From: a virus
Lineage: Duplodnaviria > Caudoviricetes
Length of the DNA stretch: 53,274 bases
Virus record (IMG/VR): IMGVR_UViG_3300011437_000003
Span: 1-53,274 of that record
Reading direction: 5' to 3' (one strand)
Position numbers and translations under genes: made by a program
Notes under the pieces: generated by a model
The model's database searches: none
Told to the model about the DNA's origin: nothing
Seen by the model: the letters and a program-made list of their open reading frames with translations, nothing else
In this document: piece by piece, positions 124 through 53,274 of the stretch
Position numbering within the stretch: the first letter of the stretch is position 1
How the letters are laid out: the number at the start of each line of letters is the position of its first letter

Positions 124-338
124 ACGCCTCCCGTCCCCTGGAACCGGACGTCCCGGAAGCGATAGAGCGAGTGCGTGCCCGGCATCGCGTACAGCAGCAC
201 GAGGCCGAAGCGGCTGCGGAGGGTCCCGGAGCGGATCGAATTGATCCCTTCGGCACGACGCAGTGTGCCAGCGGGCATGCCGTCGCGGGCGCCCATCGGC
301 CACCATCCACGTGCGAAGTCCCGCCACCCAACGCGCAT
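1..338 (-). CDS. Tail nozzle/stabilisation protein (P22 gp10 / T7 gp12-like), 5' part; continues across the junction into 53151..51798
   Basis: ATG at 338 overlaps the upstream stop (TGATG). MRVGWRDFARGWWP... reads in frame into MPPTAGREDY... of ORF 51798..53210, giving about 563 aa. Position precedes GNAT and ejection genes. Confidence 0.75.
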   Translation of the reverse strand, partial: MRVGWRDFARGWWPMGARDGMPAGTLRRAEGINSIRSGTLRSRFGLVLLYAMPGTHSLYRFRDVRFQGTGGVLYRDGVALQGGFDGERLTFARMPPTAGREDYLFVAGGGTL

Positions 339-2935
339 CAGCAGGCCGTCACGATCCCGTTCACGACAGTGAACGTCAGGAGGCTTACGGTCCCGGCGGT
401 ACACGACACCCCGGCCGTCCCGTTCGCCCAGTACACGCCCTGCACGTTGATCGCCCCCGCCTTGTCTCCGCCGGTCGGGGCCCCGACTTGGACACCTGCC
501 TGGACGGTGAACGGAAAGAGCACGTTGCTCCCGTTCGAGCGGATCGTTGCTACCCTGAAGATTCCGTTGGTCGCGGCGTCGGGGCCCCACGCGAGGGCCT
601 GCGTGATCGCGGACGACACCTGATAGAGAGTCCCGTGGCTCGCGCTGTTCGCGCCCGCGCTTGACCCGGTGACGTGCAGGGTACCGACCGAAGGCGTCGT
701 ACTCCAGGCCGGCGCCGTCGAGGTCCCCGCCGACGCCAGCACGCTTCCGGTGGCGACCGCCGCCAGCCGACTCCAGGTCGGCGTGGTCGCGCTCGCGTAG
801 ATCAGGTCGCCGATCGCCGCCGTGCTGAGCCCCGTCCCACCCTTGACACCGGGCAACACGCCCGTCACCTTCGTGGTCAGGTCAATCGACCCCGCGAGCA
901 TCGCGTTGGTCACCGCCAGCGCGGCGATGGTCGTAGCGCACGAACCGGCCGACGTCGTGACGCTGCCCGTGAGGGCCGGGAGCTGAGCGCACGTCGCGGA
1001 CCCAGCGAGATGGGAGAAGTTCAACGCCGCGTCGGCCACCTGATAGCCGGACGTCACGTTGATCTTGCCGGCTCCGGGGTCGATGCGGGCTCCAAGAGCG
1101 CCCACCATAAAGCCCCCCGTGGCTCCGATCGTCGCCCGCACGATCTCCAGGGTGGCGAAGTCGATCGGCTGCGCCGCGCCGGTCATGACCAGCAGGCGGG
1201 TGCTGGTCACCAGCGCCGCGAGGCTGTTGCGCGACACTCCGCTGAGCGTGCCGCCATAGGCGGGGCCATACGCCACCGAATTGAGGTAGTTGCCCGCACT
1301 CCCCATGGCGCCGACATACCCAAACCCGGTGCTGCTCAAGTTCTTGATGTAGGCGCCGATGGGAACGCCGGGCCCCGACTGCTCGACCGCAATGCCAGTG
1401 GTCGGGGGCACAAGACCGATCCCGATGGACGGCGTCACGTAGACCCCGCCCGCGACCGCCGCCATCACCACTGTGCGGGTCCCGGCGTCGTCGATCATGT
1501 CAGCGATCGGCACGCCGTCGACCCACGTGTTCGTCTCGACGGTGGTGTCGGTGGCGTTCGCGGTGATAACGATGTCTTTCGCGCCTGGCGTCGACCCGCG
1601 CTTGATCCGTACGCCACGGATGATCGTCTTGCTGGCATGGTTGACCCGGATGCCGTCGAGCACCGGGATCTGGATCGTTCCGCCACTGATGACCGTGCCG
1701 ACCGCGGCAAACCCCACGTTGCCGTCGATGTCGAAGGCCGCGCCGTTCGGGCCGGGCTGCCCCTCCACCTGGTTCTCGGTGAGCATTACGCCCGACGCCG
1801 CGCCGCCGCCGCTCACACCGCCGCGGATGAGCACGGCGCCCGCGCCGGCAAACAGATTGCCGTGCACGAGCAGGCTCCCGGCGCCCCCGATGGGGTTGTA
1901 GTCGAGCCCGACCGCGGACACGCCAGCCTCGAAGCCGTAGATCTCATTGTTCGCGATGCGGATGTTGTCGCCCGCCAGCTCAAACGTGATCCCGGCCACC
2001 AGACGGTTATCGGTGATGGTCGAGTGCGCCGGGGTCCCGAAGATGGTCCCGGTTCCCGAGGCGTAGATCGCCCGGCCCTGGCCGACATGATCGAGCTTGA
2101 GCCGGGTCACCATCAGGTTACGGATGTGGCCAAGCGAGCCGTCGAGATGCAGGACGTGACGCCCGCCCACGCCGGTCAGCGAGCCCGAGATGCGGAAGTG
2201 GCTGAACTCGTAGAACGCCACCCCGGCGCCCGTGACCGAGGGCCGCGCCACGAAGATGTCGGCGGTGCTGCTCGTCGCCGCGTCCACCACGAAGTTGCAG
2301 TCGTCCCCGGCGCCCGTCATGGTGACCGGGGCCGTGAACGTGACGGTGCCGTTGACCGGGTAGTCGCCCACCGGGCAGTAGATCGTCGCTCCGGTCGGTA
2401 CGATGGCGATCAGCGCATTGAACGCGGTGACGTTGGCCGCCGCGCTGTTGGTGGGCAGGCAACCCGTCGCCGCCCCGCCGTAGTTTGCCTGGATGTTGTA
2501 GACCTGGCCTCCGCGATCCGTGAGCGTCCCGGTTACCGTCCCAGGCGCAATCACGATCGACGGCAGCGACAGCGTGAGGTTCGGCCCCGCCGTCGTCACC
2601 GTGAGCTGGTTCGCAGTCCCGAGCAGGTTGAGCGGGCCCACGAGCCCGTTGATCGCGGTGACCCCAGCCCCGGCGCCCGTGATCGGAACCCACGCGGTAC
2701 CGTTCCAGTAGTACGCCGCTTTGTCGGTGGGGCTCCAACAGAACACCCGGTTCGTCTCCGGGTTGCGGACCTCGGGGCAGAGCGAGAGCGGCATCTGGTA
2801 GCCGACGGTGCGAGGTTGAGCGCTCGCCCCCGCCACCATGACGAGCATGACGAGGGCGAGCGTCAGTACGGAGACCACGGTTGCGGATCGGCCGTCTGTG
2901 GGTACTCGAAGAGGACCACCCCCTCTACGGATCAC
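338..2935 (-). CDS. Tail spike/fibre with pectate-lyase-like beta-helix and N-terminal signal peptide
   Basis: Likely GTG start at 2935 overlapping the upstream TGA. Hydrophobic VVSVLTLALVMLVMVAGASA|Q. Pectate_lyase_3-like VYNIQANYG...NVTAFNA...TIYCPVGDY, followed by G/T/A-rich fibre repeats. Confidence 0.8.
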   Translation of the reverse strand: MIRRGGGPLRVPTDGRSATVVSVLTLALVMLVMVAGASAQPRTVGYQMPLSLCPEVRNPETNRVFCWSPTDKAAYYWNGTAWVPITGAGAGVTAINGLVGPLNLLGTANQLTVTTAGPNLTLSLPSIVIAPGTVTGTLTDRGGQVYNIQANYGGAATGCLPTNSAAANVTAFNALIAIVPTGATIYCPVGDYPVNGTVTFTAPVTMTGAGDDCNFVVDAATSSTADIFVARPSVTGAGVAFYEFSHFRISGSLTGVGGRHVLHLDGSLGHIRNLMVTRLKLDHVGQGRAIYASGTGTIFGTPAHSTITDNRLVAGITFELAGDNIRIANNEIYGFEAGVSAVGLDYNPIGGAGSLLVHGNLFAGAGAVLIRGGVSGGGAASGVMLTENQVEGQPGPNGAAFDIDGNVGFAAVGTVISGGTIQIPVLDGIRVNHASKTIIRGVRIKRGSTPGAKDIVITANATDTTVETNTWVDGVPIADMIDDAGTRTVVMAAVAGGVYVTPSIGIGLVPPTTGIAVEQSGPGVPIGAYIKNLSSTGFGYVGAMGSAGNYLNSVAYGPAYGGTLSGVSRNSLAALVTSTRLLVMTGAAQPIDFATLEIVRATIGATGGFMVGALGARIDPGAGKINVTSGYQVADAALNFSHLAGSATCAQLPALTGSVTTSAGSCATTIAALAVTNAMLAGSIDLTTKVTGVLPGVKGGTGLSTAAIGDLIYASATTPTWSRLAAVATGSVLASAGTSTAPAWSTTPSVGTLHVTGSSAGANSASHGTLYQVSSAITQALAWGPDAATNGIFRVATIRSNGSNVLFPFTVQAGVQVGAPTGGDKAGAINVQGVYWANGTAGVSCTAGTVSLLTFTVVNGIVTAC

Positions 2936-3213
2936 AACTTCATCCACCGGAACAACGCCCCGCTCGGCGCCGCGACCGCGAACCCGATCGTCACCGACGT
3001 CGAGAGCGCGTCGATTCGCCACGTCGTATCCCAGTTCGGGCCGCCTTGCGGGATATACGACACCGGCAGCGTCACCGAAGTCCCGCCCGCCGGCACGGGC
3101 GTCGTCTGGAGCGTCCCGCTCGGTGCGATCGGCTGTTGGAAGAGATCGTTCAGCGCGCGTTGCTGCGGCTCGGGAAAGAGGCCCGGCGGGATCTGCCGAA
3201 TGCCGTCCGTCAC
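2932..3213 (-). CDS. Small virion structural protein (hypothetical)
   Basis: GTGA-coupled to both neighbours; beta-rich 93 aa. Confidence 0.6.
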   Translation of the reverse strand: MTDGIRQIPPGLFPEPQQRALNDLFQQPIAPSGTLQTTPVPAGGTSVTLPVSYIPQGGPNWDTTWRIDALSTSVTIGFAVAAPSGALFRWMKL

Positions 3214-3800
3214 ACCAACACCAACGCCAGCAGCATGTTCCCGAGGTTGCGACACGCTCCGGCGAACGCGCTGTCCCGATGGTCCGACTCCCGCTCGTAC
3301 TCCCGCGACAGGATCGCCAGCGCCAGCGGAACGTCCAGCCACGCCGGGAGGTCCGCCCGCAGTTCCCCGACTACCACGCCGAGCGCGCGGTCCGGGAAGT
3401 CGTGGCCCATCGGGGACCCGAACAGAAAGCTGAAGTCGGCGGACGCCTGTTGCGGGATCGGGTACAGCCGCACGAAGTGCTCCGGCATGTCCTGCTCGAC
3501 GTACGCCCGTGGCTTCGCCGCGGTTTCGTCCCGCCACGCCGAATTCGTCGCTTCCAGTTCGCGAAGCGTCGCTAGCGGGAGCATGAGATCGTCGTAGAAC
3601 ACCGCGTACTCCTTGACGACGTCGTCGGGAAACTGGTAGACCGCTTCGTTCCGGGTCGTTTCGACCAGGCGCACCGCGGTGCCCACGCCCCACCGTCCCG
3701 CGTCCACCATCATGTCGTCGTAGAAGTCCGCGATCTGTGTGTCCGGGGCAAGGTTCGTCGTCAACTCTTCCACGAGGGCGAGCACCGACGCGCGGCTCAC
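3210..3800 (-). CDS. Head-tail adaptor/tail tubular-like protein
   Basis: GTG start coupled to upstream stop. LRELE...WR...PRAY...RLYPIP pattern typical of podovirus adaptors; synteny. Confidence 0.55.
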   Translation of the reverse strand: MSRASVLALVEELTTNLAPDTQIADFYDDMMVDAGRWGVGTAVRLVETTRNEAVYQFPDDVVKEYAVFYDDLMLPLATLRELEATNSAWRDETAAKPRAYVEQDMPEHFVRLYPIPQQASADFSFLFGSPMGHDFPDRALGVVVGELRADLPAWLDVPLALAILSREYERESDHRDSAFAGACRNLGNMLLALVLV

Positions 3801-4114
3801 TTGAATTTCTCCGGTTTCAACGCGCAGCTCGCAGTCGTACAAGAGGCGATACTATCCCATACCACCTCATCCTCGCTGGCTCGAACGAAACCGTATGTGC
3901 ACCAATTGCATCCGTCTCCTGCCCGACTGCGTACCGCACCGCGCTCACCAATCTTAGTACGCTCAATCTGATCGCGCGGCGTAGTCGAAAGGGACACTGC
4001 ACCGCCCATAGAAACCGAGAGCGTGCCAGACCAACCAAGTTCACTAACTTCTAGCCACGATTCGTCTAACGGCGACGCCAATAACGCAATTGCGGCCAGC
4101 AGCGCCAGGCTCAT
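3797..4114 (-). CDS. Hypothetical Cys-containing protein with hydrophobic N-terminus (possible signal peptide)
   Basis: MSLALLAAIALLASP; CNWC and C-x4-C; lower GC than its neighbours; coupled overlaps. Confidence 0.55.
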   Translation of the reverse strand: MSLALLAAIALLASPLDESWLEVSELGWSGTLSVSMGGAVSLSTTPRDQIERTKIGERGAVRSRAGDGCNWCTYGFVRASEDEVVWDSIASCTTASCALKPEKFK

Positions 4115-7042: not shown

Positions 7043-7960
7043 CTAGCCCGTGCTGCCATCGACGCCAGCCCAGACGCCGAACGTGGAGGCCGCCATGTGC
7101 CGCTGCCAGCACGTGAAGATCGCGTTCTTGGTCCAGGGATCGTCGAAGGCATCGAAGATCGGTTCGTCCCGGGTCATGAAGTTGAGGTCGTGGACGCCCT
7201 TCGGGGCCAACGCCCACCACGCAGTCTGCGAGGTGAGGTAGTGGCCGATCATCCACGAGAACTCCTCTTCGAGGAGGGAATTCCGCTCGTTGTTCGCGGT
7301 GAACGGCTTGCCGGACGACCCGAGGATCTCCCGCGCGACGAACCGGTTGAACTCGTGCAACAGGAACATCACCGGGGCCATCATCCGCGGCAGGCCGCGG
7401 GCGTCGACCATGCTGGCGAACCGCTGCACGGAGTTCTGAATCCCGGTGATCGAGAACCCGATGTCGGGACTCGGCCGGTTCGCCTGCGAGATGCTCGCGT
7501 CGGCGAACGAGACGTGAGCCGTCGAGCAGAGGGATTCCCCGACCACGAACCCCGGGAACGCCGTGTTGAAGGCGTTGTTGAAGACGCTCCACGCGGAGAC
7601 TTCCTTGCGGTTCCGGGATGCGCGGGCGAGACCGCCGCTCAGATCCCGCATCACCCCGTAGTTGTCGTCCCGCCACATGGCGTAGGTGATCTCGATGGCC
7701 ATGCCGTAGGCCGTCGAGGTGTACGACTTGGTCGGGCCCTGCGTGGACCCGTCGAGCGGGAAGCGGTCGCCTTCGGGCATCGCGCCCATGGTCCCGAGGC
7801 CGCTGTAGATCTGGTCGGTGACGGTTGCGTACGGCAGGGTCCCGGTGTTCAGGATCTCCGGGTACTCCAACGCGCGTTCCTTCCCGACGTCGATGTAGAC
7901 GCGGTAGAGGTCGGGGCGCAGGAGCCCCGAAAAGGCGTTCGTGACTTGCGGTGCGGGCAT
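7043..7960 (-). CDS. Major capsid protein (HK97 fold, Mu gpT-like)
   Basis: 305 aa; EG...YGMAIEIT...DD.YG...LARAS, GESLCSTAH, and C-terminal W.GVDGSTG motifs. Confidence 0.85.
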   Translation of the reverse strand: MPAPQVTNAFSGLLRPDLYRVYIDVGKERALEYPEILNTGTLPYATVTDQIYSGLGTMGAMPEGDRFPLDGSTQGPTKSYTSTAYGMAIEITYAMWRDDNYGVMRDLSGGLARASRNRKEVSAWSVFNNAFNTAFPGFVVGESLCSTAHVSFADASISQANRPSPDIGFSITGIQNSVQRFASMVDARGLPRMMAPVMFLLHEFNRFVAREILGSSGKPFTANNERNSLLEEEFSWMIGHYLTSQTAWWALAPKGVHDLNFMTRDEPIFDAFDDPWTKNAIFTCWQRHMAASTFGVWAGVDGSTG

Positions 7961-10011: not shown

Positions 10012-10213
10012 ATGCAGTCTCCTCTTGTTCGGAGCGTGTCAATTCTGCGATCCATTTGTCAAGAAGTCTCTTTTGTGCTAAGGCCGCCTGGGCAGCCTCC
10101 CACGTCGTCGCGGCGTCCTGATCGGACTCCGCACGCTGGCGGTGTTTCACGAGGTGCTCGCGGTAAGACGCCAGCGCGTCGGGGTGTTGGCGCAGGAGTT
10201 CGAGCCATCTCAT
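9962..10213 (-). CDS. Small helical hypothetical protein
   Basis: 83 aa, ATGA-coupled to the portal stop. Confidence 0.55.
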   Translation of the reverse strand: MRWLELLRQHPDALASYREHLVKHRQRAESDQDAATTWEAAQAALAQKRLLDKWIAELTRSEQEETAYARYVGNAGNHSRSRA

Positions 10214-12066
10214 CCGACGGTTGTCCCGCTCGGCTGCAACGCGGCCTGCTGTCCGCCGAGCGCTCCCGTGAGCAACTGTGTCAGCATCGCCATGCCCTGC
10301 TGGGCCGGGTCTACCGCCGCATCCATCTCGGCGTGGAGGTCGACGATGAAGTTGGCGGGGTCCCGGATCTGATCGAAGGTCGTCAGGGTGCGGAGCACGA
10401 GCTGCCCCGCGGCGTCCGCGATCTTACGCGCCGCCTCCTGCACCGGGCCGGGGACCTGCGGGTTCGCCGCAATCGCCACGAGTTCGAGGGTCCGCTGGTA
10501 GTACTGTCCGAGGACGTTCATCAACATGATGCTGTTCTGGCGCTCGACATCGCGGTTGAGCGTCGTCGAGGACGCGGTCAGCTCCACGCTGTAGGCGTCG
10601 TCGAACTCGCGGTCCCGGAGCGTGGCGATCAACAGACGTCCCTTTTCCGCGCCGTGGACCTTGATGAGGTGGGCTTCCAGCTTGTGATCCCCGGCGAGAA
10701 GCCGCTCTTGCTCCCGGAACAAGCACTGCCGCACCGCCGCCGCCACGCACAGTCGGACCCCGTCAAACGCCGGGGTGAACCGCTTGTTCGCCTGGTTGAG
10801 CAGGGAGATCGCGGTGATCCCCGGCGTCCGGCTGGAGGCCAGCGAGCCGCCACGCGGCGGGGCCGTCATCTGGTTCAGGCCGACCCGGCGCTCCGCCAGC
10901 ATCATCGGGAACTGCTGCATCATAATCATCGACGGGGAGATGTCGGACATCTTCAGCTCTTTGAGCGCTTCCGGGTTGGTCGCGAACTGGACCTTCCCGG
11001 GCCATACCTTCATCGTTTCGGGGATCGACGAGTCGCTCGCGAGCCACACCCGCGCATTCGCCAGAAGCGCGTTCGTCAGCGCGTAGCTGTGGACGTCGCT
11101 GGTCTCCTGCTGGAGCGACGAGACCATGTCCATCACGCCGAGGCCGAAGAAGAGGTGGCCCCGGATCTGATATCGCATCGCTTCGAGCGGGCGCCGATCG
11201 TAGGTGTTGTACTCCACCTTCAGGACGCTTCGCGACGTGCGGTCCCACGTGACCTTCAGGTCCTCGGCGACCCCGTCTTCGTCGATGTCGTAGTGACAGA
11301 ACACGTGCCAGACCTCAAACAGCTCCGAGTAGACGTTGTTCCGCCACGTACGGCCGAGCATCTCGCGACGGTTGCGGACCCAGCCGATCGCTCCGCACGC
11401 CTGGACGTGCTCGGTGTTCCAGTCTTCCTCGGCGGCCTGGTCGTCCAACTCGGTCACCGTCATCCAGCGACGGTACGCGCACCACGAGGCAGTCTGGAGG
11501 TCGCCGTAGGCTCCGCCCGGGACGAAGAAGTCCTCCGGCGGGATCGGCGTGATGCGGGGCCCGCGCTGCGTCACCGTCATCGTGCGGGTCTTCCGTACCG
11601 ACTCGACGAACGGGACGTGGAGAATGCCGGTCCCGAGTTTCACGTCGTCGAGGATGGCCTCTTCCGCCGCGTTTCGAACGTTCCACTCGTTCGCCACGCC
11701 CCAGTTGACGTGCTCCTGAAGCGCCACCGCGGCGTCTCGCCGGGCTTCGTCTGAGCCGACTGGCCGCACCGTGAGGATCGGCTGGATATTGAAGATGAGG
11801 TCGAGGATTTGGGCGTAAATCTCGTCGGTGGCGATGGCCCCGACCGGGACTTCGATGTTCGGCGCGTTCTCGATCGGGACGTTTCGCACCGCGACGCGAG
11901 GCTCGGCGACGTACTGGCGTAGGGATTCTCGCCACAGGACCTCTTGCGGGTGCCGGGCGGCGCAGGCGTCCTCCGTTTCGCGGCTGAGCCACGCGACGAA
12001 GTCCCGCATCCCCTCGTCGGTCCACTTGAGGGTCGGGACGGTGAGGTGGGGCTCGATCAACCGCAT
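10210..12066 (-). CDS. Portal protein
   Basis: 618 aa; D.VKLGTGI, IPPEDFFVP, FFGLGV, Q-rich C-terminus typical of P22-like podovirus portals. Confidence 0.85.
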   Translation of the reverse strand: MRLIEPHLTVPTLKWTDEGMRDFVAWLSRETEDACAARHPQEVLWRESLRQYVAEPRVAVRNVPIENAPNIEVPVGAIATDEIYAQILDLIFNIQPILTVRPVGSDEARRDAAVALQEHVNWGVANEWNVRNAAEEAILDDVKLGTGILHVPFVESVRKTRTMTVTQRGPRITPIPPEDFFVPGGAYGDLQTASWCAYRRWMTVTELDDQAAEEDWNTEHVQACGAIGWVRNRREMLGRTWRNNVYSELFEVWHVFCHYDIDEDGVAEDLKVTWDRTSRSVLKVEYNTYDRRPLEAMRYQIRGHLFFGLGVMDMVSSLQQETSDVHSYALTNALLANARVWLASDSSIPETMKVWPGKVQFATNPEALKELKMSDISPSMIMMQQFPMMLAERRVGLNQMTAPPRGGSLASSRTPGITAISLLNQANKRFTPAFDGVRLCVAAAVRQCLFREQERLLAGDHKLEAHLIKVHGAEKGRLLIATLRDREFDDAYSVELTASSTTLNRDVERQNSIMLMNVLGQYYQRTLELVAIAANPQVPGPVQEAARKIADAAGQLVLRTLTTFDQIRDPANFIVDLHAEMDAAVDPAQQGMAMLTQLLTGALGGQQAALQPSGTTVG

Positions 12067-12778: not shown

Positions 12779-13111
12779 TTACTGGGGACAGGGGTCGAGT
12801 TTGTCCCGCCGACAGGCCAGGCGCTTCTCGTGCGCCGAGCGGTCGAGGAACGGCTTCTTGAAGGCGGCGTCGGTCTGGCTCCGCTCCATCTGCTCGATAC
12901 CGTAGCGGACCAGCCCGCGGATCACGTCGTCGCGCGTCTGCGCGGGCTCCGGCGCCCTCTTCGTCGACTGAATCCGGGCGTTGTACCGCACCAGGTGCTC
13001 GGCGATGGTCGCCTCCTGGTCGTCCGTGATGGTGCCGCTGTACGGCCCGGCCGCGACCGGGGCCGCCGCCCCGACCAGCAGCAGCATGAGCAGCGTCGCG
13101 TGAACGGTCAT
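12779..13111 (-). CDS. Small exported protein (signal peptide, C-terminal Cys pair)
   Basis: RBS AGGAGG; MTVHATLLMLLLVGAAAPVAA|G; C-x7-C at the C-terminus. Confidence 0.65.
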   Translation of the reverse strand: MTVHATLLMLLLVGAAAPVAAGPYSGTITDDQEATIAEHLVRYNARIQSTKRAPEPAQTRDDVIRGLVRYGIEQMERSQTDAAFKKPFLDRSAHEKRLACRRDKLDPCPQ

Positions 13112-13122
13112 GGCCAGCCCTC

Positions 13123-16100
13123 CTAGCACCGCACGAGGGTGCCATTGTTGTTGAAGCAAGCGCTTGTGGAACCGCCGCCGGCCAAAGTCGAGTCGGTGAT
13201 CCCGCCAGCGTCGCCGATCACGAGCACCGGCGTCCCGGCGGTGTTGAGGATCTGGAAGTTGGAGCCGTTTGCCCGGAGGTGCTTGGTCCCATTGGCCGCG
13301 CCGCCGTGAATCAGGACGATGCCCGCCCCCTGCGTACCCCCGCTGACACTGGTCACGATGATCTGGTCATCGATGTCGGTCGGCACGGAGCTATCGATCA
13401 CCCCATCGGCCGTGATCTTGAACTTCGCGACGAACCCGGCATCGTTCGGGAAGAAGTCGCTCACCACGAAAGCGTTCGTGAAGCCCCGGCCGAACGGGAC
13501 GCCTGCGACGGCACCGAGCGCCGTATTCGCGAGGAAGTTTGTCGCCCCGGTCACAGAGGTGCCGACGGTCTCCAAGTGGTACGCGGCAATGCCCACCGCG
13601 GTGGTGCCGCAGTTCGCCGCACCGCAGAACACCTCCGCCTGCACCGATGTCACGCCGTTCGGCGTCGTCCCGGCCCGCGCCGAGCCCCACGTGTTCAGGC
13701 CGTATCCACCAAAGCCCGAGCCCGACCGCGCATCGAAGTACGCTACGACCGCGGCGCGCTCAGCCGATGACGTCGAGCCCTCCATCTGGTAAACCCCGCC
13801 GAGTGCGATCCCGGTCCCAGTGAACCCCGCTTGCTCGCTCACGCGCACCATGCCGGTGACGGACGTCGCGTTGCCGAGCTGGGCGGAGCTGGACGTCGAG
13901 CTGTCCGTGTTGTCGATCAAGAACCCGGCGTAGCTGTTGGACAAGATGTACTCGGTGAACGAGAATGGGGTGCTCGCGGTACGCGCGCCACTCGTCGCCG
14001 CGCTGATGAAGAGAGGTCGGGAGTCCGTATACGAGGGACTCGTGTTCGGGACGTCCAGCGTCAGTCGCTTGAAGGTGTCGTCCCACGTCGCGTTCGGGGA
14101 CCCGCTCTGCGTCGCGGCGCCGGTCCAGAAGGTCATCTGGCCGGCGGAGCCGGAGCCGGTGATCCCCGACGCGCACCCAGACCATCCGAGCTGCTGGAAA
14201 CCGTCCGTCTTCAGGCACTGGTTTGCGGTGCCGTCCGCGATCGGCAACTGCCACATGATGTTCGTGGCGATGGCATCGGGGGCCTTGAAGCCGACGTAGC
14301 TGACGCCGTTCGCGACGAGTTCCCGAAACCGGATTTCTCCGGTGTTGCCGGCTGAAGCACCGAACGGCAGCAGAGTAAGTGCCGCTTGCTGGGCCCACGA
14401 GTGGGCCCCGGTCCACGCACACGTACCGCTCAGGACGCAGGCGGCAGACGTCTGCGTGGTCGCGTCGGGGAACTTGAACCCGCCGCTGGTCGATTCGATG
14501 AGCCCGATTACTTGCATCGAACCGGCGGCGGCGAATTCGATGAAGTTTGACCACGAGGCGGAACTCGCACGACGTTGGAGCCGCAGCCCGCCCGTCGCGG
14601 AGTTGCCGATGAAGCGGAAGCCGAAGCCGGAAGCGGACGCCGACGTAAGGAGCTGGATCTCGCCGAGCGCGCCGCCGCCGTAGTCCCCGATGAGCAAGCC
14701 GCCAAACTGCGCCACCGGCATCGTCGTGAAGTTGATACCGAGTCTCGCGGTCCCCGCGACCTCAAATTCTGTCTGCGGAAGGGTCGTACCGATCCCGACC
14801 CGCCCAATATCGGTGATCGTCATGCGCGTCGCGGTGGCCGTCGATCCGGCCGGCGTCGTCACGAAGTTGAGGTACGCGGGCCGGGAGGCGCCGGTCCACG
14901 TACCGCCCGCTACCATGTTGATCGCCACCTGGCCGCTCGTGTACACGGTGCCGTCGTAACCCTGGCCGAACAACGAGCAGATCACGTTGTTGGCGACAAG
15001 GGTTGTCGGGGCGGCTGGGGTCCCGTTCGCCCGCCGGCAGAAATACTCCCCTTCGTTGCCGTAGGCGTCGATCTGGACCGCGGTAGCAACGCCGCTGGCG
15101 CTGGCCCACCGCTGCCGCACCGCAGTCAGCGAAGCGACGGGCGGGAGCGTCGAGACGTTCGTCGTAACGTAGACGTGCTTGTTGGTGTTGTCGACGCCGA
15201 AGGCGGTGTCGGTGAGCATCGCGTTGGTCGCCGCGCTGAAGATGAGCTGGCCCGGGGTCCCGAGGATGTTGTTCACGACGCGGGTCCCGCTGTTGAAGGA
15301 GAGCGCGCCGGACGCCGCCGACATGTCGGCTCCGAAGCCGCCCCGAGCCGCACCAAGCGTGCCCGTCCAGCCCAGCGTGAAGGTGTGGACGTCGACCGCC
15401 GACCCGATCGCGAGCGTCACGTTGGTGTCGTCGACTTTGGCGAAGGTTTGCGTAGCGCCGGTCTGCCCACCCAGCGACGTGAGACCCGTGCCGCCACTTG
15501 AGCAGTTCGCCCAGCCCCACACGTTGCTTCCGTTCGTCGAGAGACAGGTTCCAGCCGCGCCATCGCCAGTCGGCAGCGTCACCGTCGTGCTGGCAGCGGT
15601 CACGCCGGGCTGAATCGTGAACGTGTTCGCGTTCGCCGCGTTGAAGAGAACGAGCTGCCCGGTCGTCGTCGAGGCGACCCCGATCCCGACCGCCGGGGTA
15701 ACGGTGAGGCGCTGGGTCGCCGTGGTTGTTCCGATCGCGACGTTCTGCGCCGACGTGATACGTACCGCCTCGGTGAGGGTCGTTGAGCCGCTCGGCGTCG
15801 TGGCGAGCGTGATGAAGGTGGGCCACGACGTGGCGGTGAAGGCGCCGGACGCGAAGAAGCCGAGCGAGGCCGCAGACCCGCTGTAGCCGGGAGTCCCTTC
15901 CTCGTATCCCTGTCCGATGATCGCGCAGATCGGGTCGTTCGTGGTGAGGGCGGTCGGGGCAGCCGGCGTGGTGTTCGCCCGTCGACAAACGAGGGCACCT
16001 TGTGCAGCCCAAGCATCGGCTGCGATGTTGCTGGGGCTTCCACTGGCACTGGCGACCCGAAACCTGGAGTCCGCAGGCGGGAGCGGAAGCCCCGACGCAT

Positions 16101-17937
16101 TGTTCGTTACATTAAGCTGGATATTGACGTTGTCCCAGGTCAGCTTACTGTTAGTCCCAATGGCGTTTGTCGCGGCCGAGAACAGAAGGTCTCCTGGCGT
16201 CCCCAAGACGTTTGAGAACACCGGAGTCCCCGCATTGAACGAGACGGCGCCGGTCGCTGCGCTGGTGTCCTGTCCCCAACCGCCGCGGTCCCGGGATAGC
16301 GTTGAAGCCCACGTCAGGACGTGTGCCGTGCCTGCCGACGCAATCTGAAGGTTCGTGTCGTTCGTGAAGGTCTGCGTCGCTCCGGTCAGTCCGTTCAATG
16401 AGAGGATACCAGTCCCGGCCGTACTGCACGCCGCGCCGGTTGGCGAGATCACTCCGGCGCTGTTGATCTGAAGGCATTCTGTACCGGCGGTTGGGACGGG
16501 AAAGGTCAGGTTGTAGAAGGCGCCGGGACGTTGAATCTGGACTTCCCATGGCATCGGGTACCGAGCCGGCGTTCCTGAAATAGGATTGGTCACGCCGACA
16601 TAGCGGTTGGATCCGACGATGACCTCGGCAGCACTCCCGACAATCTCGATACCGATAGCACTTCCGGTCGTGATCCGCAGGAGTTCATTGTCAACGATGC
16701 GGTAGCGTGTTCCGCCGCCCATCTTGATCCCGACATCGACGTCGCTGATGAAGTTCTGCGCGATGATGACGTCGGTCACGTACGTCGCGTCATTCGTGCC
16801 GAAGGCGATGCCCCAGTTCGTCGCAACGCCACCACTACCAAGCAAACGGCTGATCTGGTTCCCGGTGATCTGCAAGTAGAGGATCGCCGCAGCACCGCTC
16901 GACCGTGTTACCTGAATCCCGATGGCATCGAATGACTCGATTGAATTGTTCGCGATGATGAAGTCTTGCGTCGAGTCGAGCGGGTCGATGTTGATGGCCC
17001 CGGCGAAGCCGAGGAACTTGTTGTTCGTCAGCCGAATACCGCCACCCGAGCGCCAGATGAATCCATTAGCTGTGATGGGGCCGAAGAACGTGTTCCCAGT
17101 GATGACGGTGTCACCCTGGTCACCGTTTTGCGTATTCTCCCAAGTGATACACGTCGTCACGCAGTTCCAGAAGGTGTTGTTCTCGATGATGGCGAACAGG
17201 CTACTCACGGAGCGAGTTGAGCCGGCAAGCCCGAGGAATTGCATGTTCGAGATGCGGGTTTTCTGCGCGCCACTCAAGCCACCGACAACCCCGGGCGACG
17301 TCAGCCGAATGCCGTCACCGCTTACCGCAACAGAGCTGACGATCGCGAAGTTTGCGAACAAAACCGGGTCGGTCGAGTTGACCGCAAAGCCGTGCTGCGT
17401 GGCGTTCGTCAAGCGTACGCACGATCCGCTCGTGCCGGCGGTACCGACCTGCCCGGACCCACCACCGAACCATGTCACCGACTTGGTTACGTTGATCTGC
17501 ACGCTGATGTCGTAGCAGCCGACGCCTGGCGGGATGTAGATAGGTTGCCCAGCTATTGCTGCGTCGTGCGCATCCTGAAACGCCGCGTTGTTCACAGCAA
17601 CCGACGCGCCGATCGCCGCACCATAAGTCGTGATATCGAGCCAGAGCGACGCGGAGCCCGTGCATGCGCTGTAAGCGCCGCCGTTGAACGAGCAGAGCAG
17701 CGTATGCGTCACGCTGTCAGCCATCACACGCGCGACGCCGGCTGACGACAACGGATGCGTCGAGGTTTCGGTGAGCAAGAGCTGTTCGAGGGTCCCGGAC
17801 GGGCCCATAAGCGCCTTCAGCGCTTGCTGCTCACGGGTCGTAAGGATGACTTGCTGCGCCACCGCAAGCGGGGCCACCGCGCACAGTACGAAGCCGAAGA
17901 CGGTACCGAGGACGAAACCGAGGATGAACCGCTTCAA
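13123..17937 (-). CDS. Large tail spike/fibre (1604 aa) with beta-helix domain, repeated fibre modules and N-terminal signal peptide
   Basis: MKRFILGFVLGTVFGFVLCAVAPLAVA|QQ; WLDITTYGA...NNAAFQDA...IYIPPG beta-helix start; VGIGTT and LP.ADG...CL.TDG fibre motifs. Confidence 0.85.
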   Translation of the reverse strand: MKRFILGFVLGTVFGFVLCAVAPLAVAQQVILTTREQQALKALMGPSGTLEQLLLTETSTHPLSSAGVARVMADSVTHTLLCSFNGGAYSACTGSASLWLDITTYGAAIGASVAVNNAAFQDAHDAAIAGQPIYIPPGVGCYDISVQINVTKSVTWFGGGSGQVGTAGTSGSCVRLTNATQHGFAVNSTDPVLFANFAIVSSVAVSGDGIRLTSPGVVGGLSGAQKTRISNMQFLGLAGSTRSVSSLFAIIENNTFWNCVTTCITWENTQNGDQGDTVITGNTFFGPITANGFIWRSGGGIRLTNNKFLGFAGAINIDPLDSTQDFIIANNSIESFDAIGIQVTRSSGAAAILYLQITGNQISRLLGSGGVATNWGIAFGTNDATYVTDVIIAQNFISDVDVGIKMGGGTRYRIVDNELLRITTGSAIGIEIVGSAAEVIVGSNRYVGVTNPISGTPARYPMPWEVQIQRPGAFYNLTFPVPTAGTECLQINSAGVISPTGAACSTAGTGILSLNGLTGATQTFTNDTNLQIASAGTAHVLTWASTLSRDRGGWGQDTSAATGAVSFNAGTPVFSNVLGTPGDLLFSAATNAIGTNSKLTWDNVNIQLNVTNNASGLPLPPADSRFRVASASGSPSNIAADAWAAQGALVCRRANTTPAAPTALTTNDPICAIIGQGYEEGTPGYSGSAASLGFFASGAFTATSWPTFITLATTPSGSTTLTEAVRITSAQNVAIGTTTATQRLTVTPAVGIGVASTTTGQLVLFNAANANTFTIQPGVTAASTTVTLPTGDGAAGTCLSTNGSNVWGWANCSSGGTGLTSLGGQTGATQTFAKVDDTNVTLAIGSAVDVHTFTLGWTGTLGAARGGFGADMSAASGALSFNSGTRVVNNILGTPGQLIFSAATNAMLTDTAFGVDNTNKHVYVTTNVSTLPPVASLTAVRQRWASASGVATAVQIDAYGNEGEYFCRRANGTPAAPTTLVANNVICSLFGQGYDGTVYTSGQVAINMVAGGTWTGASRPAYLNFVTTPAGSTATATRMTITDIGRVGIGTTLPQTEFEVAGTARLGINFTTMPVAQFGGLLIGDYGGGALGEIQLLTSASASGFGFRFIGNSATGGLRLQRRASSASWSNFIEFAAAGSMQVIGLIESTSGGFKFPDATTQTSAACVLSGTCAWTGAHSWAQQAALTLLPFGASAGNTGEIRFRELVANGVSYVGFKAPDAIATNIMWQLPIADGTANQCLKTDGFQQLGWSGCASGITGSGSAGQMTFWTGAATQSGSPNATWDDTFKRLTLDVPNTSPSYTDSRPLFISAATSGARTASTPFSFTEYILSNSYAGFLIDNTDSSTSSSAQLGNATSVTGMVRVSEQAGFTGTGIALGGVYQMEGSTSSAERAAVVAYFDARSGSGFGGYGLNTWGSARAGTTPNGVTSVQAEVFCGAANCGTTAVGIAAYHLETVGTSVTGATNFLANTALGAVAGVPFGRGFTNAFVVSDFFPNDAGFVAKFKITADGVIDSSVPTDIDDQIIVTSVSGGTQGAGIVLIHGGAANGTKHLRANGSNFQILNTAGTPVLVIGDAGGITDSTLAGGGSTSACFNNNGTLVRC
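14783..16410 (-). repeat. Internal duplication of an ~230-aa module in the 1604-aa fibre
   Basis: Two copies (about 15725-16410 and 14783-15487) share TGATQTF, LGTPG.L.FSAATNA, CRRAN.TPAAPT.L, GQGY, TTP.GST, IGTT. Confidence 0.85.
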
Positions 17938-20047: not shown

Positions 20048-20067
20048 GGTTCCTCCAGTCACAGGGT

Positions 20068-20223: not shown

Positions 20224-20229
20224 CGGGTG

Positions 20230-21758: not shown

Positions 21759-21760
21759 GC

Positions 21761-51262: not shown

Positions 51263-51801
51263 CGTACCGCCTCCATCGCAACGGCCATCTCGACGCAGGG
51301 CCGTCGGTGTCGCCGCAACGTCTCTGCAAACCGCTCCCGGGTCAGCTCGACGATCCAGGCGGGGTCCCCATCCCACAACCCCGCGACGCGGCTAAGGATA
51401 GTGTAGCCAAGGCGCCGATGCGGACGAAGAAGTTTTTCTTGCTTCGTGATCCCAAAGATCACCGGAACCTGCGTGAAGTACCACGCATACGTATCGAGGG
51501 TCAGCGCCAACGCTTCGTGACTTCGGCGGCGGCCTCGGCGAATCCATAACCCCGTGAACAACCCGCTGAGGACCGGCTCGGCCCACATGGCGAACCAGAT
51601 TCCTGCGGCGTCGCGATCGTATACGAGCACCTTCGGGCGCCCAATGATCCGGTAAAGCGCGCCAATCGTCTGCGAATCCCGGGTGAAAAGTGCCGGAAGG
51701 TCCCCGTCCTGGGACATCCGCAACCACCATTGCGCCACGAGGATGTCGTCGTCCGCGGAGCCGATGTACAGCCGGGTCCCGTTCGTGTGTTCAGGCGTCA
51801 C
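51259..51801 (-). CDS. GNAT-fold protein (positional equivalent of T7 gp13)
   Basis: LWI...RR, HRRLGY motifs; located between nozzle and ejection genes. Confidence 0.55.
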   Translation of the reverse strand: MTPEHTNGTRLYIGSADDDILVAQWWLRMSQDGDLPALFTRDSQTIGALYRIIGRPKVLVYDRDAAGIWFAMWAEPVLSGLFTGLWIRRGRRRSHEALALTLDTYAWYFTQVPVIFGITKQEKLLRPHRRLGYTILSRVAGLWDGDPAWIVELTRERFAETLRRHRRPCVEMAVAMEAVR

Positions 51802-53274
51802 TTGAGGGCCTCCGCTGGTAGGGGAACGTAGACGTCCGCCTCGACGCCGAACACCGTTACGCTCGCCGCGAGGGACCCGGCGAGCCGCACGCTCCACACG
51901 TGCCCCCACTTCCCGACAGCCAGCTCGATCGGCGGATCCGGGCGCACCGAGGTGGCGAACTGCGGCAACACGTATGTCGCTCCGTCCACGAGCAGCGTCG
52001 GGGTGAGCCACTGTCCGCCGCTGTCCACGTCGAAGTACAGTCGCTGCACGAGCCCCCGCACCGACACGTCAAACCGTACGCCCGGCGTCTCCACTTCGAA
52101 CGCGATGGCGGCTCCGTTGTCCGTAAGGACGCCGGGGACCTCCGGAATGAACACGCCCTCATTGGACCCCGCCACCAGCACCTTCGTATCTGGCTCAAAA
52201 TACAATGCCGAAATCCGTTGCTTCGTGTACCGCCACGCCCCGCTCGCCACGTCAAGAATCAACGTGGTGGATTCGTCACTGAACCAGACTTCGCGGCCGG
52301 TGTACTCCGCGATATCCGCAACGAACGGCGGGATGTCTTCGAGGGCCTCGCCGGTCAACAGGCGCCCGATCGCCTCGAAGCCGACGAGCTTGCTGTCGGT
52401 CCCGGCGAACATCCGAATCCCGTCATACGACTGGTACGCGATGCCGAACGGGGTCGGGACGATAGAGAACGGGCGGTCGCTGCCCGGCGCCCCAAACACC
52501 TCCCGCCACGTGAACGGCTCCGTGAACCCGAGCACCTGAATCACGTGTCCGTTCGTCCAACCGTACAAGGACCCGCCCCACGAGACGAGCTTGACCACTG
52601 GGTCGTCGCCGTTGTTCACTTCGATGAATCCGGCGAGCGATTCGGGGCGCCCTCGCGGTGAGTAGTAGATTCGGCCTTCCTCACCGGAGGCGGAGATCCG
52701 AGTCCAGAACATCCGCCCGGCGTACGGGCCGACTGCGTCCGCGAAGTCCCCGCGGGGCGGCGCGTTGTCCAGCGGCAGCTCTTCGGACTGAAGGTCAGCG
52801 TCCGGGGCGTTGTCCGCGTATGTCGTCGCAGTGTTGTTCGCGATCTCCGCCAGCTTGAACAGGGTCGTGAGGTTGGCGAAGGTGCGCCAAATCTCCCGGG
52901 TATCGACCTGCGGGTCATTCGAGGTCGGGACCGACGTGAGATTCACCGACTGCGTCGCGGGCGAGACGGTCGCCGGCCCGGTGAACGCGGCGGGGTTCGG
53001 GTTGCTCCGGGCGCCGGTCACCGAGTTCTTGAATGTCACCGCGTACATGTACGTGCCGTTGAGGACTCCGGCCCCGCCGACCGTTGCGATCGGGTCGATC
53101 CCAGGCGCGTCGATTCCCCACTTCGTGACGGTGCCGTCCGTCGCCACCTTCACGAGCGTCCCGCCTCCGGCGACGAACAGGTAGTCTTCGCGGCCCGCAG
53201 TCGGCGGCATCCGAGCGAACGTCAGCCGCTCCCCGTCGAAGCCGCCCTGGAGCGCTACGCCATCGCGGTAGAGG
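51798..53274 (-). CDS. Tail nozzle/stabilisation protein, 3' part (5' end at 338 across the junction)
   Basis: YAGRMFW, RIYYS...PES beta-propeller-type motifs. Confidence 0.75.
   Translation of the reverse strand, partial: LYRDGVALQGGFDGERLTFARMPPTAGREDYLFVAGGGTLVKVATDGTVTKWGIDAPGIDPIATVGGAGVLNGTYMYAVTFKNSVTGARSNPNPAAFTGPATVSPATQSVNLTSVPTSNDPQVDTREIWRTFANLTTLFKLAEIANNTATTYADNAPDADLQSEELPLDNAPPRGDFADAVGPYAGRMFWTRISASGEEGRIYYSPRGRPESLAGFIEVNNGDDPVVKLVSWGGSLYGWTNGHVIQVLGFTEPFTWREVFGAPGSDRPFSIVPTPFGIAYQSYDGIRMFAGTDSKLVGFEAIGRLLTGEALEDIPPFVADIAEYTGREVWFSDESTTLILDVASGAWRYTKQRISALYFEPDTKVLVAGSNEGVFIPEVPGVLTDNGAAIAFEVETPGVRFDVSVRGLVQRLYFDVDSGGQWLTPTLLVDGATYVLPQFATSVRPDPPIELAVGKWGHVWSVRLAGSLAASVTVFGVEADVYVPLPAEALK
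53152..53274. repeat. Terminal direct repeat / circular assembly overlap, copy 2
   Basis: Identical to 1-123. Confidence 0.97.

What the first reader, a model, noticed from the sequence alone, without database searches (positions are those of the whole stretch)
338..2935. A second, independent tail spike in the tail module also has a signal peptide and paired cysteines
Seen: located between the adaptor genes and the nozzle gene, a typical virion position. It begins MIRRGG...VVSVLTLALVMLVMVAGASA|QP, with pairs CPEVRNPETNRVFC, CAQLPALTGSVTTSAGSC and terminal CTAGTVSLLTFTVVNGIVTAC, plus a beta-helix domain. Both big spikes are predicted to be cleaved before Gln and both end in Cys. Inference: finding this twice at separate loci argues for a design principle rather than a mis-called start.
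Basis: partly seen in the sequence, partly recalled or inferred. Interest (0 to 1): 0.78.

Follow-up and report, generated by a model that had tools for sequence, protein, structure and literature searches.

The report
Phage tail spike carrying export signal
A spike-like, sugar-cutting protein encoded among the tail genes of an uncultured phage begins with an ordinary bacterial secretion signal that its relatives also carry, so it probably folds outside the cytoplasm where tailed-phage particles are built, which is unusual.

Summary
Gene 338-2935 (-) encodes an 865-aa protein. It has a Sec-type leader (basic n-region, 18-22 hydrophobic residues, ASA|QP) and nine cysteines, each with a close neighbour. 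Residues about 128-522 form a right-handed beta-helix (VIA Z about 31 to alginate epimerases, the RbmB lyase and the Sf6 and phi29 spikes). A fibre-shaft module follows, and the protein ends in Cys.

The start is not mis-called. GTG 2935 overlaps the stop of the upstream gene (GTGA), and the next start, GTG 2878, still keeps the hydrophobic stretch. A whole-library search found a family sharing leader + C-x12-C loop + YWNG hairpin, and 16 of 18 members begin with such a leader. One member sits after the capsid gene of an unrelated phage contig, again with a GTGA overlap and next to a second leader-bearing giant protein. Among 56 shaft-module relatives, leader-bearing ones carry a median of 8 Cys against 2.

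Export and disulfide folding outside the cytoplasm are therefore likely. Whether the protein then joins the virion is untested; the alternative is that it acts as a free exported enzyme or adhesin. The nearest annotated phages lack such leaders.

Earlier AI notes of this scan report the same pattern in eight other genomes. Six literature searches found no paper on it.

The parts
338..2935 (-). Whole gene: 865-aa leader-bearing beta-helix fibre/spike protein (P0001); stop codon at 338-340
   Evidence: GC3 0.87 over the long frame
2819..2935 (-). Sec-type signal peptide, residues 1-39: n-region MIRRGGGPLRVPTDGRS (net +3), h-region ATVVSVLTLALVMLVMVAG, c-region ASA, then Gln40. The alternative start GTG 2878 gives a 20-residue leader with no charged n-region
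   Evidence: modelled as a helix at residues 17-38
2666..2818 (-). Mature N-terminal module, residues 40-90: C53-x12-C66 loop followed by the YWNGTAWVP beta-hairpin
   Evidence: Family alignments, (P59, C66, W77 invariant; C53, G79 at 90% or more); pLDDT about 81-85 for residues 51-80
2531..2665 (-). Fibre repeat NGLVGPLNLLGTANQLTVTT..NLTLSLPS, residues 91-135, shared with leaderless metagenomic tail fibres
1466..2503 (-). Right-handed parallel beta-helix, residues about 145-490 (the pectate-lyase-like, polysaccharide-acting fold)
1049..1465 (-). Residues 491-629: unmodelled, and no homologue among the fetched proteins
686..1048 (-). Fibre-shaft modules, residues 630-750: the C649-C666 loop module and the VTGVLPxxxGGTG module, both repeated many times in other fibre proteins
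338..685 (-). C-terminal tip, residues 751-865, with the C845-x19-C865 terminal loop; no homologue found
2932..3213 (-). 93-aa leaderless protein. It is translationally coupled on both sides: GTGA overlaps with 3210-3842 and with the spike. Function unknown
3210..3842 (-). 210-aa structural protein, weak match to phrog_399
   Evidence: E 0.0013; the phrog_399 protein of L004 has the matching position
51798..53210 (-). 470-aa tail hub/nozzle candidate, next downstream across the 123-bp terminal repeat
13123..17937 (-). The other leader-bearing spike: 1604 aa, Beta_helix PF13229 (26.5 bits, cut-off 25.9), 11 close Cys pairs. Its TTG start overlaps the stop of the 122-aa gene 17934-18302

Best explanation
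The gene encodes a tail-fibre/tailspike-type receptor-binding enzyme that is made as a pre-protein with a genuine Sec signal peptide.

Shown: the anatomy of the leader, its conservation across a family, and the paired cysteines.

Inferred: late in infection of a two-membrane host the chain is exported through SecYEG and cut by signal peptidase I after Ala39, leaving Gln40 as the new N-terminus. It then folds, trimerises and forms its disulfides (53-66, 649-666, 845-865 and one pair among 159/187/213) in the oxidising periplasm.

More speculative: the finished spike meets the cytoplasm-built, leaderless head-tail particle only when the holin, endolysin and spanins open the envelope. It docks through its short mature N-terminal Cys-loop/YWNG module near the adaptor-hub junction. 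On the virion, the beta-helix cuts or binds a surface polysaccharide and the unique C-terminal tip binds the receptor.

My odds: the leader is real and is used for export, about 0.85. The exported protein ends up on the virion, about 0.5. The whole chain, about 0.45.
For: 1. Start. GTG 2935 overlaps the upstream stop (GTGA) and has an SD-like GGTGGA. The only other upstream-of-domain start, 2878, still includes the h-region.

2. Leader anatomy. n-region net +3, 22 uncharged hydrophobic residues with mean Kyte-Doolittle 2.26, and ASA at -3..-1.

3. Conservation. Scoring residues 1-150 against 1.84 billion representatives gave 68 hits at E <= 0.001. I picked the 18 that carry the Cys-loop/YWNG module at their N-terminus. 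16 of these have an uncharged hydrophobic stretch of 13 or more residues at the very N-terminus. The other two (P0004, P0040) start 8-13 residues before the domain with AHA|A and ADA|Q remnants. 11 of 18 have Gln at +1. The leaders keep their character but not their sequence, as signal peptides do.

4. Leaderless fibres that share only the YWNG and repeat part begin MSKKFLVNINMGGNQ... and have 0-1 Cys.

5. Second phage context. In L004 the homologue follows the capsid gene (phrog_9953, 7e-19), a phrog_399 protein and a 522-aa gene. It again starts by a GTGA overlap directly at the leader. A second leader-bearing protein follows (20 Cys in its 1109-codon frame), then a leaderless 443-aa tail-spike-like protein.

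6. Export correlates with cysteine use. Of 56 relatives of residues 490-865, my crude caller finds 29 with a leader and 27 without. Cys after residue 40 has a median of 8 against 2 (Mann-Whitney p = 1e-7), and the count is even in 22 of 29.

7. Two-membrane host. The late region holds lipobox proteins (20068-20223 LTLGGC, 20548-20970 ALTGC), a leader plus coiled-coil protein (19760-20071) and a holin-like membrane protein.

8. Fold and position fit a virion spike.

9. Sec-exported trimeric phage-like fibres exist in cells. All 21 Bdellovibrio MAT fibres have a conserved beta-rich domain right after the signal peptide and are located at the cell surface (PMC10769870, passages read).
Against: - No signal-peptide predictor and no experiment were available. 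Cleavage, export and disulfides are all inferred.
- From the database start 2878 the leader has no charged n-region.
- The mature protein lacks the roughly 45-residue leaderless N-terminal segment that classical fibres with the same YWNG module have, so its docking element is unknown.
- The nearest annotated phages (vir526, Caulobacter phage Kuura, Microcystis phage Mel-JY34) have no leader-like N-terminus on any of 30 structural-region proteins of 200 aa or more. The trait is therefore not needed for this virion type.
- Each of the two phages also encodes a leaderless candidate that could be the real virion fibre or spike: 18616-19752 here (a fibre only by a recalled motif), and the phrog-supported 443-aa protein in L004. 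The L004 protein has 13 Cys without a leader, which blurs the Cys/leader rule.
- Leader-bearing shaft relatives also lie on MAG contigs where 0 of 6 neighbours matched a phage structural family.
- The sequences behind the Cys statistics are related to one another, and my leader caller is crude.
Confidence: 0.45

Rival explanations
1. Exported but not a virion part. The phage secretes a free fibre-shaped polysaccharide lyase, hydrolase or adhesin into the periplasm or onto the surface of the infected cell. There it could destroy or mask the receptor or the capsule (blocking superinfection and easing release), or stop polysaccharide export. Adsorption is done by a leaderless fibre.
For: - The leader and the paired Cys argue for export as in the main reading.
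- Both phages also carry a leaderless candidate: 18616-19752 here (fibre only by a recalled motif), and the 443-aa tail-spike-like protein with phrog tail-spike hits in L004.
- The classical leaderless N-terminal segment is missing.
- The best fold matches include secreted or periplasm-acting enzymes: AlgE4/AlgE6 epimerases and RbmB.
- Leader-bearing shaft relatives sit on contigs without recognisable phage genes.
- A phage-derived depolymerase targeted to the periplasm has been used on capsule export (PMC6003464, search listing only).
Against: - The gene is translationally coupled inside the head-tail gene block in two unrelated phages.
- The N-terminal YWNG and repeat module, and the shaft modules, are those of phage tail fibres.
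- Two very large proteins (865 and 1604 aa) are a heavy investment for an accessory enzyme in a 53-kb genome.
Confidence: 0.3
2. The hydrophobic N-terminus is not used for export during infection. It tethers the spike to the inner face of the membrane or acts as an assembly or trimerisation helix. The particle is completed in the cytoplasm, and the disulfides form only after lysis, in air-exposed soil water.
For: - Tailed-phage virions can carry many disulfides: Agrobacterium phage Milano (PMC10811340). I saw only its title and the start of its abstract, so I do not know where those bonds form or whether those proteins have leaders. A term search of its text for cytoplasm, oxidi- and periplasm found nothing.
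- The n-region from start 2935 is long (17 residues), and from 2878 it is absent.
Against: - The small residues at -3/-1, and Gln at +1 in 11 of 18 members, are what signal peptidase I needs, not what a docking helix needs.
- The h-regions are conserved in character only.
- The h-region is strongly hydrophobic (Leu/Val-rich), unlike the releasable Gly/Ala-rich SAR anchors (own knowledge).
- Leader presence tracks Cys number.
Confidence: 0.15
3. Artefact: the true start lies after the hydrophobic stretch (for example ATG at Met48), and the 'leader' is untranslated or a chance hydrophobic reading.
For: - GC3 of codons 1-47 is 0.68, against 0.87 for the long frame.
- An ATG exists at residue 48.
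Against: - Protein-level conservation runs through the leader and the residues between it and Cys53 in 16 of 18 relatives.
- Met48 is not conserved.
- GTGA coupling sits at the leader's first codon in two phages.
- There is no SD before Met48.
Confidence: 0.03

Closest known systems
Podovirus tailspike depolymerases and appendages with a right-handed beta-helix (Sf6 gp14, HK620, P22 gp9, phi29 gp12, Klebsiella Depo32/DpK2)
   Same: The same central fold: VIA Z 27-30 over 300-350 residues. The gene lies in the tail gene block. The layout is an elongated N-anchor, helix, tip.
   Different: Those proteins have no signal peptide and fold in the cytoplasm (own knowledge). No similarity to their particle-binding N-domains was found. 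Cysteines here are paired and the protein ends in Cys.
Leaderless metagenomic tail fibres sharing the YWNG hairpin and NQI..TLSLP repeat (P0006-P0011, P0028, P0065; 816-935 aa)
   Same: 36-44% identity over residues about 60-135; the same fibre repeats.
   Different: They begin MSKKFLVNINMGGNQIVSP..., have no hydrophobic leader, no C-x12-C loop and 0-1 Cys. Here that first segment is replaced by leader plus Cys loop.
Bdellovibrio bacteriovorus MAT (mosaic adhesive trimer) fibres (PMC10769870, passages read)
   Same: Phage-fibre-like proteins of about 1000 aa with a signal peptide, followed directly by a conserved beta-rich N-domain. They are exported and surface-located. Some have tailspike-like beta-helices.
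   Different: They are encoded by a cell, not a phage, and are anchored on the producer's own surface. Homology of the N-domains was not tested, because no MAT sequence was in hand.
Sec-exported phage late proteins: signal-peptide endolysins such as Oenococcus phage fOg44 Lys44 (recalled), the T4 antiholin RI with a cleavable signal peptide (PMC8385771, search listing only), and filamentous-phage g3p (recalled)
   Same: Phage proteins that use the host Sec pathway and signal peptidase. g3p is a disulfide-bonded receptor-binding protein that is exported before it joins the virion.
   Different: The endolysins and RI are lysis proteins, not virion parts. g3p belongs to a phage that assembles at the membrane by extrusion, whereas this is a head-tail phage with portal and terminase.

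Membership tests
Sec / signal peptidase I signal peptide | Positively charged n-region | tested here: met
   Net +3 from start 2935. Not met from start 2878, where the net charge is 0
Sec / signal peptidase I signal peptide | Uncharged hydrophobic h-region of about 10-20 residues | tested here: met
   22 residues, mean Kyte-Doolittle 2.26; modelled as a helix at 17-38
Sec / signal peptidase I signal peptide | Small neutral residues at -3 and -1, no Pro at +1 | tested here: met
   A-S-A | Q-P. The Pro is at +2
Sec / signal peptidase I signal peptide | Not a lipoprotein signal (no lipobox Cys at +1) and not a Tat signal (no S/T-R-R-x-F-L-K next to the h-region) | tested here: met
   By eye: no Cys before residue 53. 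The RR at residues 3-4 lies 14 residues before the h-region. The motif definitions are recalled
Sec / signal peptidase I signal peptide | Score from a trained predictor, and experimental cleavage | not testable with these tools
   No SignalP or DeepTMHMM here; the phage is uncultured
Pectate-lyase-superfamily beta-helix tailspike / depolymerase | Right-handed parallel beta-helix domain | tested here: met
   Model pLDDT 60-90 over residues 145-490. VIA Z 31.3 / rmsd 3.0 / 333 aligned to 5lw3; Z 30.1 to 2vbk. Foldseek BFVD best E 3.8e-7, with named pectate-lyase-superfamily phage proteins from about 1e-5
Pectate-lyase-superfamily beta-helix tailspike / depolymerase | Pfam PF12708 or PF13229 above the gathering score | tested here: not met
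   PF12708 scores 24.2 bits against a cut-off of 27, on residues 170-238 only
Pectate-lyase-superfamily beta-helix tailspike / depolymerase | Catalytic acidic residues in the groove; a trimer | not tested
   No close solved relative to transfer residues from (no PDB sequence match). Only a monomer was modelled
Virion tail spike of a podovirus | N-terminal particle-binding domain related to known ones, or presence in purified virions | tested here: inconclusive
   The N-module model gave no BFVD match at E <= 0.001; the weak rows are tail-fibre proteins. The Atlas leads (PTL_trimer, Mtd_N) score below 0.9. No proteomics is possible
Leader + C-x12-C + YWNG N-terminal module family (defined here) | Leader, two Cys 12 residues apart, then a W/Y-W-N/D-G-x-x-W/Y hairpin | tested here: met
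   Alignments. P59, C66 and W77 are invariant in 13 sequences
Bdellovibrio MAT fibres | Conserved beta-rich domain of about 130 aa right after the signal peptide, homologous among members | not tested
   Only the paper's passages were read; there were no MAT sequences to compare

The most novel reading that the evidence does not exclude
This phage builds its particle in two compartments. Head, tail hub and small leaderless adaptor proteins assemble in the cytoplasm. Both large receptor-binding spikes are exported by Sec, oxidatively folded and disulfide-locked in the periplasm. They are captured by the particle only at lysis, through the short Cys-loop/YWNG module. The N-terminal module (leader + C-x12-C + YWNG) would then be a portable 'periplasmic-route' docking cassette that moves between unrelated soil phages.
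Probability: 0.35. Interest if true: 0.85.

Novelty: new variant of a known kind. Interest (0 to 1): 0.6.

Why it matters
To my knowledge, all parts of a tailed-phage particle are taken to be assembled in the cytoplasm. If receptor-binding spikes routinely take the Sec route, several things follow.
- Infectivity would depend on host SecYEG, signal peptidase and the Dsb system, which gives new host factors and new resistance routes.
- The last assembly step would take place at or after lysis.
- Disulfide-locked spikes would be an adaptation to harsh extracellular settings such as soil.
- Annotation pipelines that trim or distrust hydrophobic N-termini of virion genes would be systematically wrong. 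The database call for this gene starts 19 codons late.

If the proteins are instead free exported enzymes, they are a new class of phage-encoded periplasmic or surface depolymerases that look like tail fibres. That matters for predicting host range from 'tail-fibre' genes.

Tried and rejected
- Close relatives in phage collections. tblastn of the protein and of P0022 against 50,697 phage records found no match. IMG/VR scans with P0001 and P0004 found no relative.
- The DNA pattern for YWNGxAWVP in IMG/VR gave 28 loci, 0 of the leader type. The motif is a common hairpin in many phage proteins.
Relatives cannot be drawn for a virus record.
- Genome-collection scan with P0022: nothing. With P0136: 5 loci in MAGs or genomes (Acetobacteraceae, two Acidobacteriales, Mariniphaga, Methylobacterium). 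Three have leaders. No phage structural hit appeared in the 6 neighbours tested.
- No host was identified.
- Are the small upstream proteins a family? Pairwise BLASTP gives E > 0.3 and there are no Pfam hits, so I rejected the idea at sequence level.
- Co-fold of spike residues 40-150 with the 93-aa upstream protein: the job returned 'no answer' (score 0.00, mark 0.32). This is not evidence either way.
- Sequence search of solved structures with the spike, the 470-aa, 210-aa and 378-aa proteins found nothing significant. NCBIfam found none.
- The N-module model against BFVD gave 0 matches at E <= 0.001.
- A phage-encoded Dsb enzyme or signal peptidase: none among the 41 window proteins scanned with Pfam. 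Not all ORFs were scanned.
- Neighbour homology between the window and L004: none by BLASTP.
- Literature: six full-text searches and passages of two eCIS papers gave no report of Sec leaders on tailed-phage fibres. Subscription journals and supplements were not searchable.
Full report
WHAT THE WINDOW IS

The 53,274-bp window is a complete virus record with 123-bp direct terminal repeats and 66% G+C.

It is a head-tail phage. Its recognisable genes are:
- an SU10-type portal, 10210-12066 (PF23899, 8.6e-25);
- a large terminase in two ORFs, 23785-25170 and 22762-23604;
- a capsid protein, 7043-7960 (PF25209, 3e-9);
- a UDG-PolA fusion and a primase;
- two tRNAs.

The late genes run on the minus strand from about 26.3 kb down to 338. 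In the circular sense they continue from 53.2 kb down to 47 kb.

Only distant relatives are annotated. The portal is 24% identical to that of Caudoviricetes sp. vir526. The polymerase is 25-29% identical to those of Microcystis phage Mel-JY34 and Caulobacter phage Kuura.

THE OBSERVATION

Gene 338-2935 (-) translates to 865 residues.

Its GTG start at 2935 overlaps the TGA of the upstream 93-aa gene (GTGA). That gene in turn overlaps the stop of the 210-aa gene 3210-3842 in the same way. A GGTGGA lies 7 nt before GTG 2935, and nothing comparable precedes GTG 2878. The public gene call nevertheless starts at 2878 (P0002, 846 aa).

Both starts keep the hydrophobic stretch. From 2935 the N-terminus reads n-region MIRRGGGPLRVPTDGRS (net +3), a 22-residue uncharged hydrophobic stretch (ATVVSVLTLALVMLVMVAGASA, mean hydropathy 2.26) that ends in the c-region A-S-A, then Q-P.

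The cysteines lie at 53, 66, 159, 187, 213, 649, 666, 845 and 865, and the last residue is Cys. All nine have a neighbour within 35 residues, which 0.43% of 20,000 random placements reach.

The 1604-aa protein 13123-17937 has the leader MKRFILGFVLGTVFGFVLCAVAPLAVA|QQ, 22 further Cys in 11 tight pairs (0 of 20,000 random placements match this) and a C-terminal Cys. The two proteins share no significant similarity (best E 0.044), so the two leaders are independent.

Among 59 likely genes of the window, 7 have a strongly hydrophobic N-terminal stretch. Both giant late proteins are among them.

FOLD

- Pfam gives only a sub-threshold pectate-lyase-like hit (24.2 against 27 bits). PHROGs and NCBIfam give nothing.
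- An AlphaFold2 model on a shallow 15-row alignment has mean pLDDT 51. It shows a helix at 17-38, a small sheet at 65-84 and a beta-helix with pLDDT 60-90 from 145 to 490. Residues 492-865 are not modelled.
- Foldseek matches polysaccharide lyases and phage depolymerases at E 1e-4 to 1e-3 in the PDB, and phage beta-helix proteins in BFVD (best E 3.8e-7; named pectate-lyase-superfamily proteins from about 1e-5).
- VIA-align gives Z 31.3 (rmsd 3.0, 333 residues) to AlgE6, Z 31.0 to RbmB, Z 30.4 to phi29 gp12, Z 30.1 to the Sf6 tailspike and Z 27 to HK620 and Depo32.
- A shared beta-helix does not fix the substrate.
- Residues 630-750 are fibre-shaft modules that repeat many times in other proteins. 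Residues 490-629 and 751-865 have no relative among the proteins fetched.

IS THE LEADER CONSERVED?

The word-indexed search of the whole protein found only one N-terminal relative, P0004 (45% identity over residues 39-132), whose called start lies inside an AHA|A remnant.

Scoring residues 1-150 against all 1.84 billion representatives gave 68 proteins at E <= 0.001. I took the 18 that carry the module at their N-terminus; the other hits match only internal fibre repeats.
- 16 of the 18 begin with an uncharged hydrophobic stretch of 13-23 residues followed by a small-x-small site.
- 11 of the 18 have Gln at +1.
- The two exceptions (P0004, P0040) look like late start calls.
- After the leader come about 8-12 residues, a Cys, 12 residues (...P-V-T-N-x-V-x), a second Cys, and the hairpin L-x-Y-W-N-G-x-A-W-V-P.
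- In a 13-row alignment P59, C66 and W77 are invariant, and C53 and G79 nearly so.

The leaders are similar in character, not in sequence. That is the signature of signal peptides, not of a docking helix.

Classical fibres that share only the YWNG and repeat part (P0006-P0011 and others) start MSKKFLVNINMGGNQ..., have no such stretch and carry 0-1 Cys.

A SECOND PHAGE CONTEXT

One family member (P0019) could be fetched with flanks: locus L004, 22 kb of a 29.7-kb metagenome contig at 69% G+C.

Its gene order is: capsid protein (phrog_9953, 7e-19), a phrog_399 structural protein (1.5e-8), a 522-aa protein, then the leader-bearing fibre. The fibre's GTG overlaps the stop of the 522-aa gene as GTGA, and its first codons are already the hydrophobic stretch.

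Next comes a second leader-bearing protein (MQLILALLLGLLAAPAWA|DG; 20 Cys in its 1109-codon frame), then a leaderless 443-aa protein with many tail-spike PHROG hits.

The neighbours of L004 and of the window are not similar by BLASTP, so the module sits in different phage backbones.

In L004 the capsid, phrog_399, 544-aa and 529-aa proteins have 0 Cys. The leaderless 443-aa spike has 13, which is an exception to a clean rule.

LEADER AND CYSTEINES GO TOGETHER

A search with residues 490-865 returned 56 other proteins that share the shaft modules. My own crude leader caller splits them 29 with a leader and 27 without. Cys after residue 40 has a median of 8 against 2 (Mann-Whitney p = 1e-7), and the count is even in 22 of 29.

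The sequences are related to one another, so the p-value overstates independence, and the caller is not SignalP. Even so, the pattern is what exported, disulfide-bonded proteins show.

HOST ENVELOPE

The late region encodes:
- two lipobox proteins, 20068-20223 (51 aa, Pro-rich, like an outer-membrane spanin) and 20548-20970;
- a leader plus coiled-coil protein, 19760-20071;
- membrane proteins, 20954-21295 and 21292-21747.

None has a family hit, so a two-membrane host is an inference from anatomy. No host could be named.

WHAT ARGUES AGAINST A VIRION ROLE

- In vir526, Kuura and Mel-JY34, none of 30 structural-region proteins of 200 aa or more has a leader-like N-terminus.
- The mature protein lacks the first roughly 45 residues of the classical fibres.
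- Each of the two phages has a leaderless candidate that could do the adsorbing: the phrog-supported 443-aa protein in L004, and here 18616-19752, whose fibre reading rests only on a recalled motif.
- Leader-bearing shaft relatives also occur on MAG contigs of Acetobacteraceae, Acidobacteriales and Mariniphaga, where 0 of 6 neighbours hit a phage structural family and one is a glycosyltransferase.

MECHANISM

The best-supported chain is as follows.
1. Sec export and signal-peptidase cleavage at Ala39|Gln40 (likely).
2. Periplasmic folding with three or four disulfides (likely, given step 1).
3. Attachment to the cytoplasm-built particle when the envelope is opened at lysis (possible, about even odds).

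Fibres can join fibreless particles in lysates in vitro, as shown for T4 (recalled). Sec-exported trimeric phage-like fibres exist in Bdellovibrio (PMC10769870). So no step is physically implausible.

The main rival keeps steps 1 and 2 but makes the protein a free periplasmic or surface enzyme or adhesin. A weaker rival keeps it in the cytoplasm, with disulfides forming only after lysis; phage Milano shows that virion disulfide networks exist (PMC10811340, title and abstract start only). A mis-called start is close to excluded.

WHAT IS KNOWN

Six full-text searches found no paper describing Sec leaders on tail fibres or tailspikes of tailed phages. Subscription journals and supplementary files could not be searched.

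The scan's own earlier notes are AI-written and unchecked. They describe the same pattern in eight other genomes, mostly soil phages. None is in this genome or similar in sequence to this module. One of these notes led me to the Bdellovibrio paper.

VERDICT

The 'design principle' reading is supported for export. The 'tail spike' reading is plausible but unproven.

This is a new variant of a known kind: a beta-helix fibre/spike protein with a Sec leader and disulfide pairs. What is added here is a definable, portable N-terminal module (leader + C-x12-C + YWNG) found in at least two unrelated phage backbones.

Noticed in passing
window 22762-25170 (-): The large terminase is split. The ATPase part is 23785-25170 (phrog_38 positions 267-479) and the nuclease part is 22762-23604 (positions 542-719). 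They are separated by about 180 bp, and a 130-aa ORF (23370-23762) overlaps the gap. This could be an intron, an intein remnant, a frameshift or a true split.
   Followed up: no
window 13123-17937 (-): The 1604-aa leader-bearing beta-helix protein lies between the terminase/lysis genes and the portal, an odd place for a spike. It has 11 tight Cys pairs and internal duplications of about 350 residues, visible as repeated 'TPGxLxFSAATNA' and 'CRRANxTPAAPT' segments.
   Followed up: partly
window 21606-21764 (-): A 52-aa ORF with its own leader (MSVRRLWMTVVLPLVLLAGALPAQA|SH), coupled to the 128-aa gene upstream. Its mature start (STRAEQALEAL) resembles the mature start of the 1604-aa spike (TTREQQALKAL). 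This may be a remnant or a spare N-terminal cassette.
   Followed up: no
window 12779-13159 (-): A small protein just after the big spike, again with a leader (MTVHATLLMLLLVGAAAPVAA|GP).
   Followed up: no
window 19760-21747 (-): A lysis-like cluster with no family hits: the lipoprotein 20068-20223 (spanin-like), the leader plus coiled-coil protein 19760-20071, the 140-aa lipoprotein 20548-20970, and the membrane proteins 20954-21295 and 21292-21747. No endolysin was recognised anywhere in the window.
   Followed up: partly
window 18616-19752 (-): A leaderless 378-aa protein with a C-terminal SSHTHTLGAHQH motif. It reminds me of the His-x-His metal sites of fibre tips (recalled), but no family or PDB match supports that.
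   Followed up: partly
proteins P0018, P0032, P0054, P0063: Four short family members (84-199 aa) stop soon after the N-terminal module, with look-alike tails (...LFYGAALQ...LFYGALSQ...FFWLAGWQ...LFWLVGWQ). This suggests a conserved break point, such as a cassette junction, an inversion site or an intron, rather than random contig ends.
   Followed up: no
proteins P0012, P0019, P0089, P0117, P0125: A shared C-terminal ending, of the type C..NC.....C.GGG.GA.AKR..G.WVCN, on several leader-bearing fibres. It is a different tip from the one in the window protein. The tips seem to be swapped on a common leader and N-module.
   Followed up: no
window 42841-45339 (+): The DNA polymerase A is fused to an N-terminal uracil-DNA glycosylase-superfamily domain (PF03167, 7.8e-27). 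The same layout appears in the distant relatives hit.
   Followed up: no
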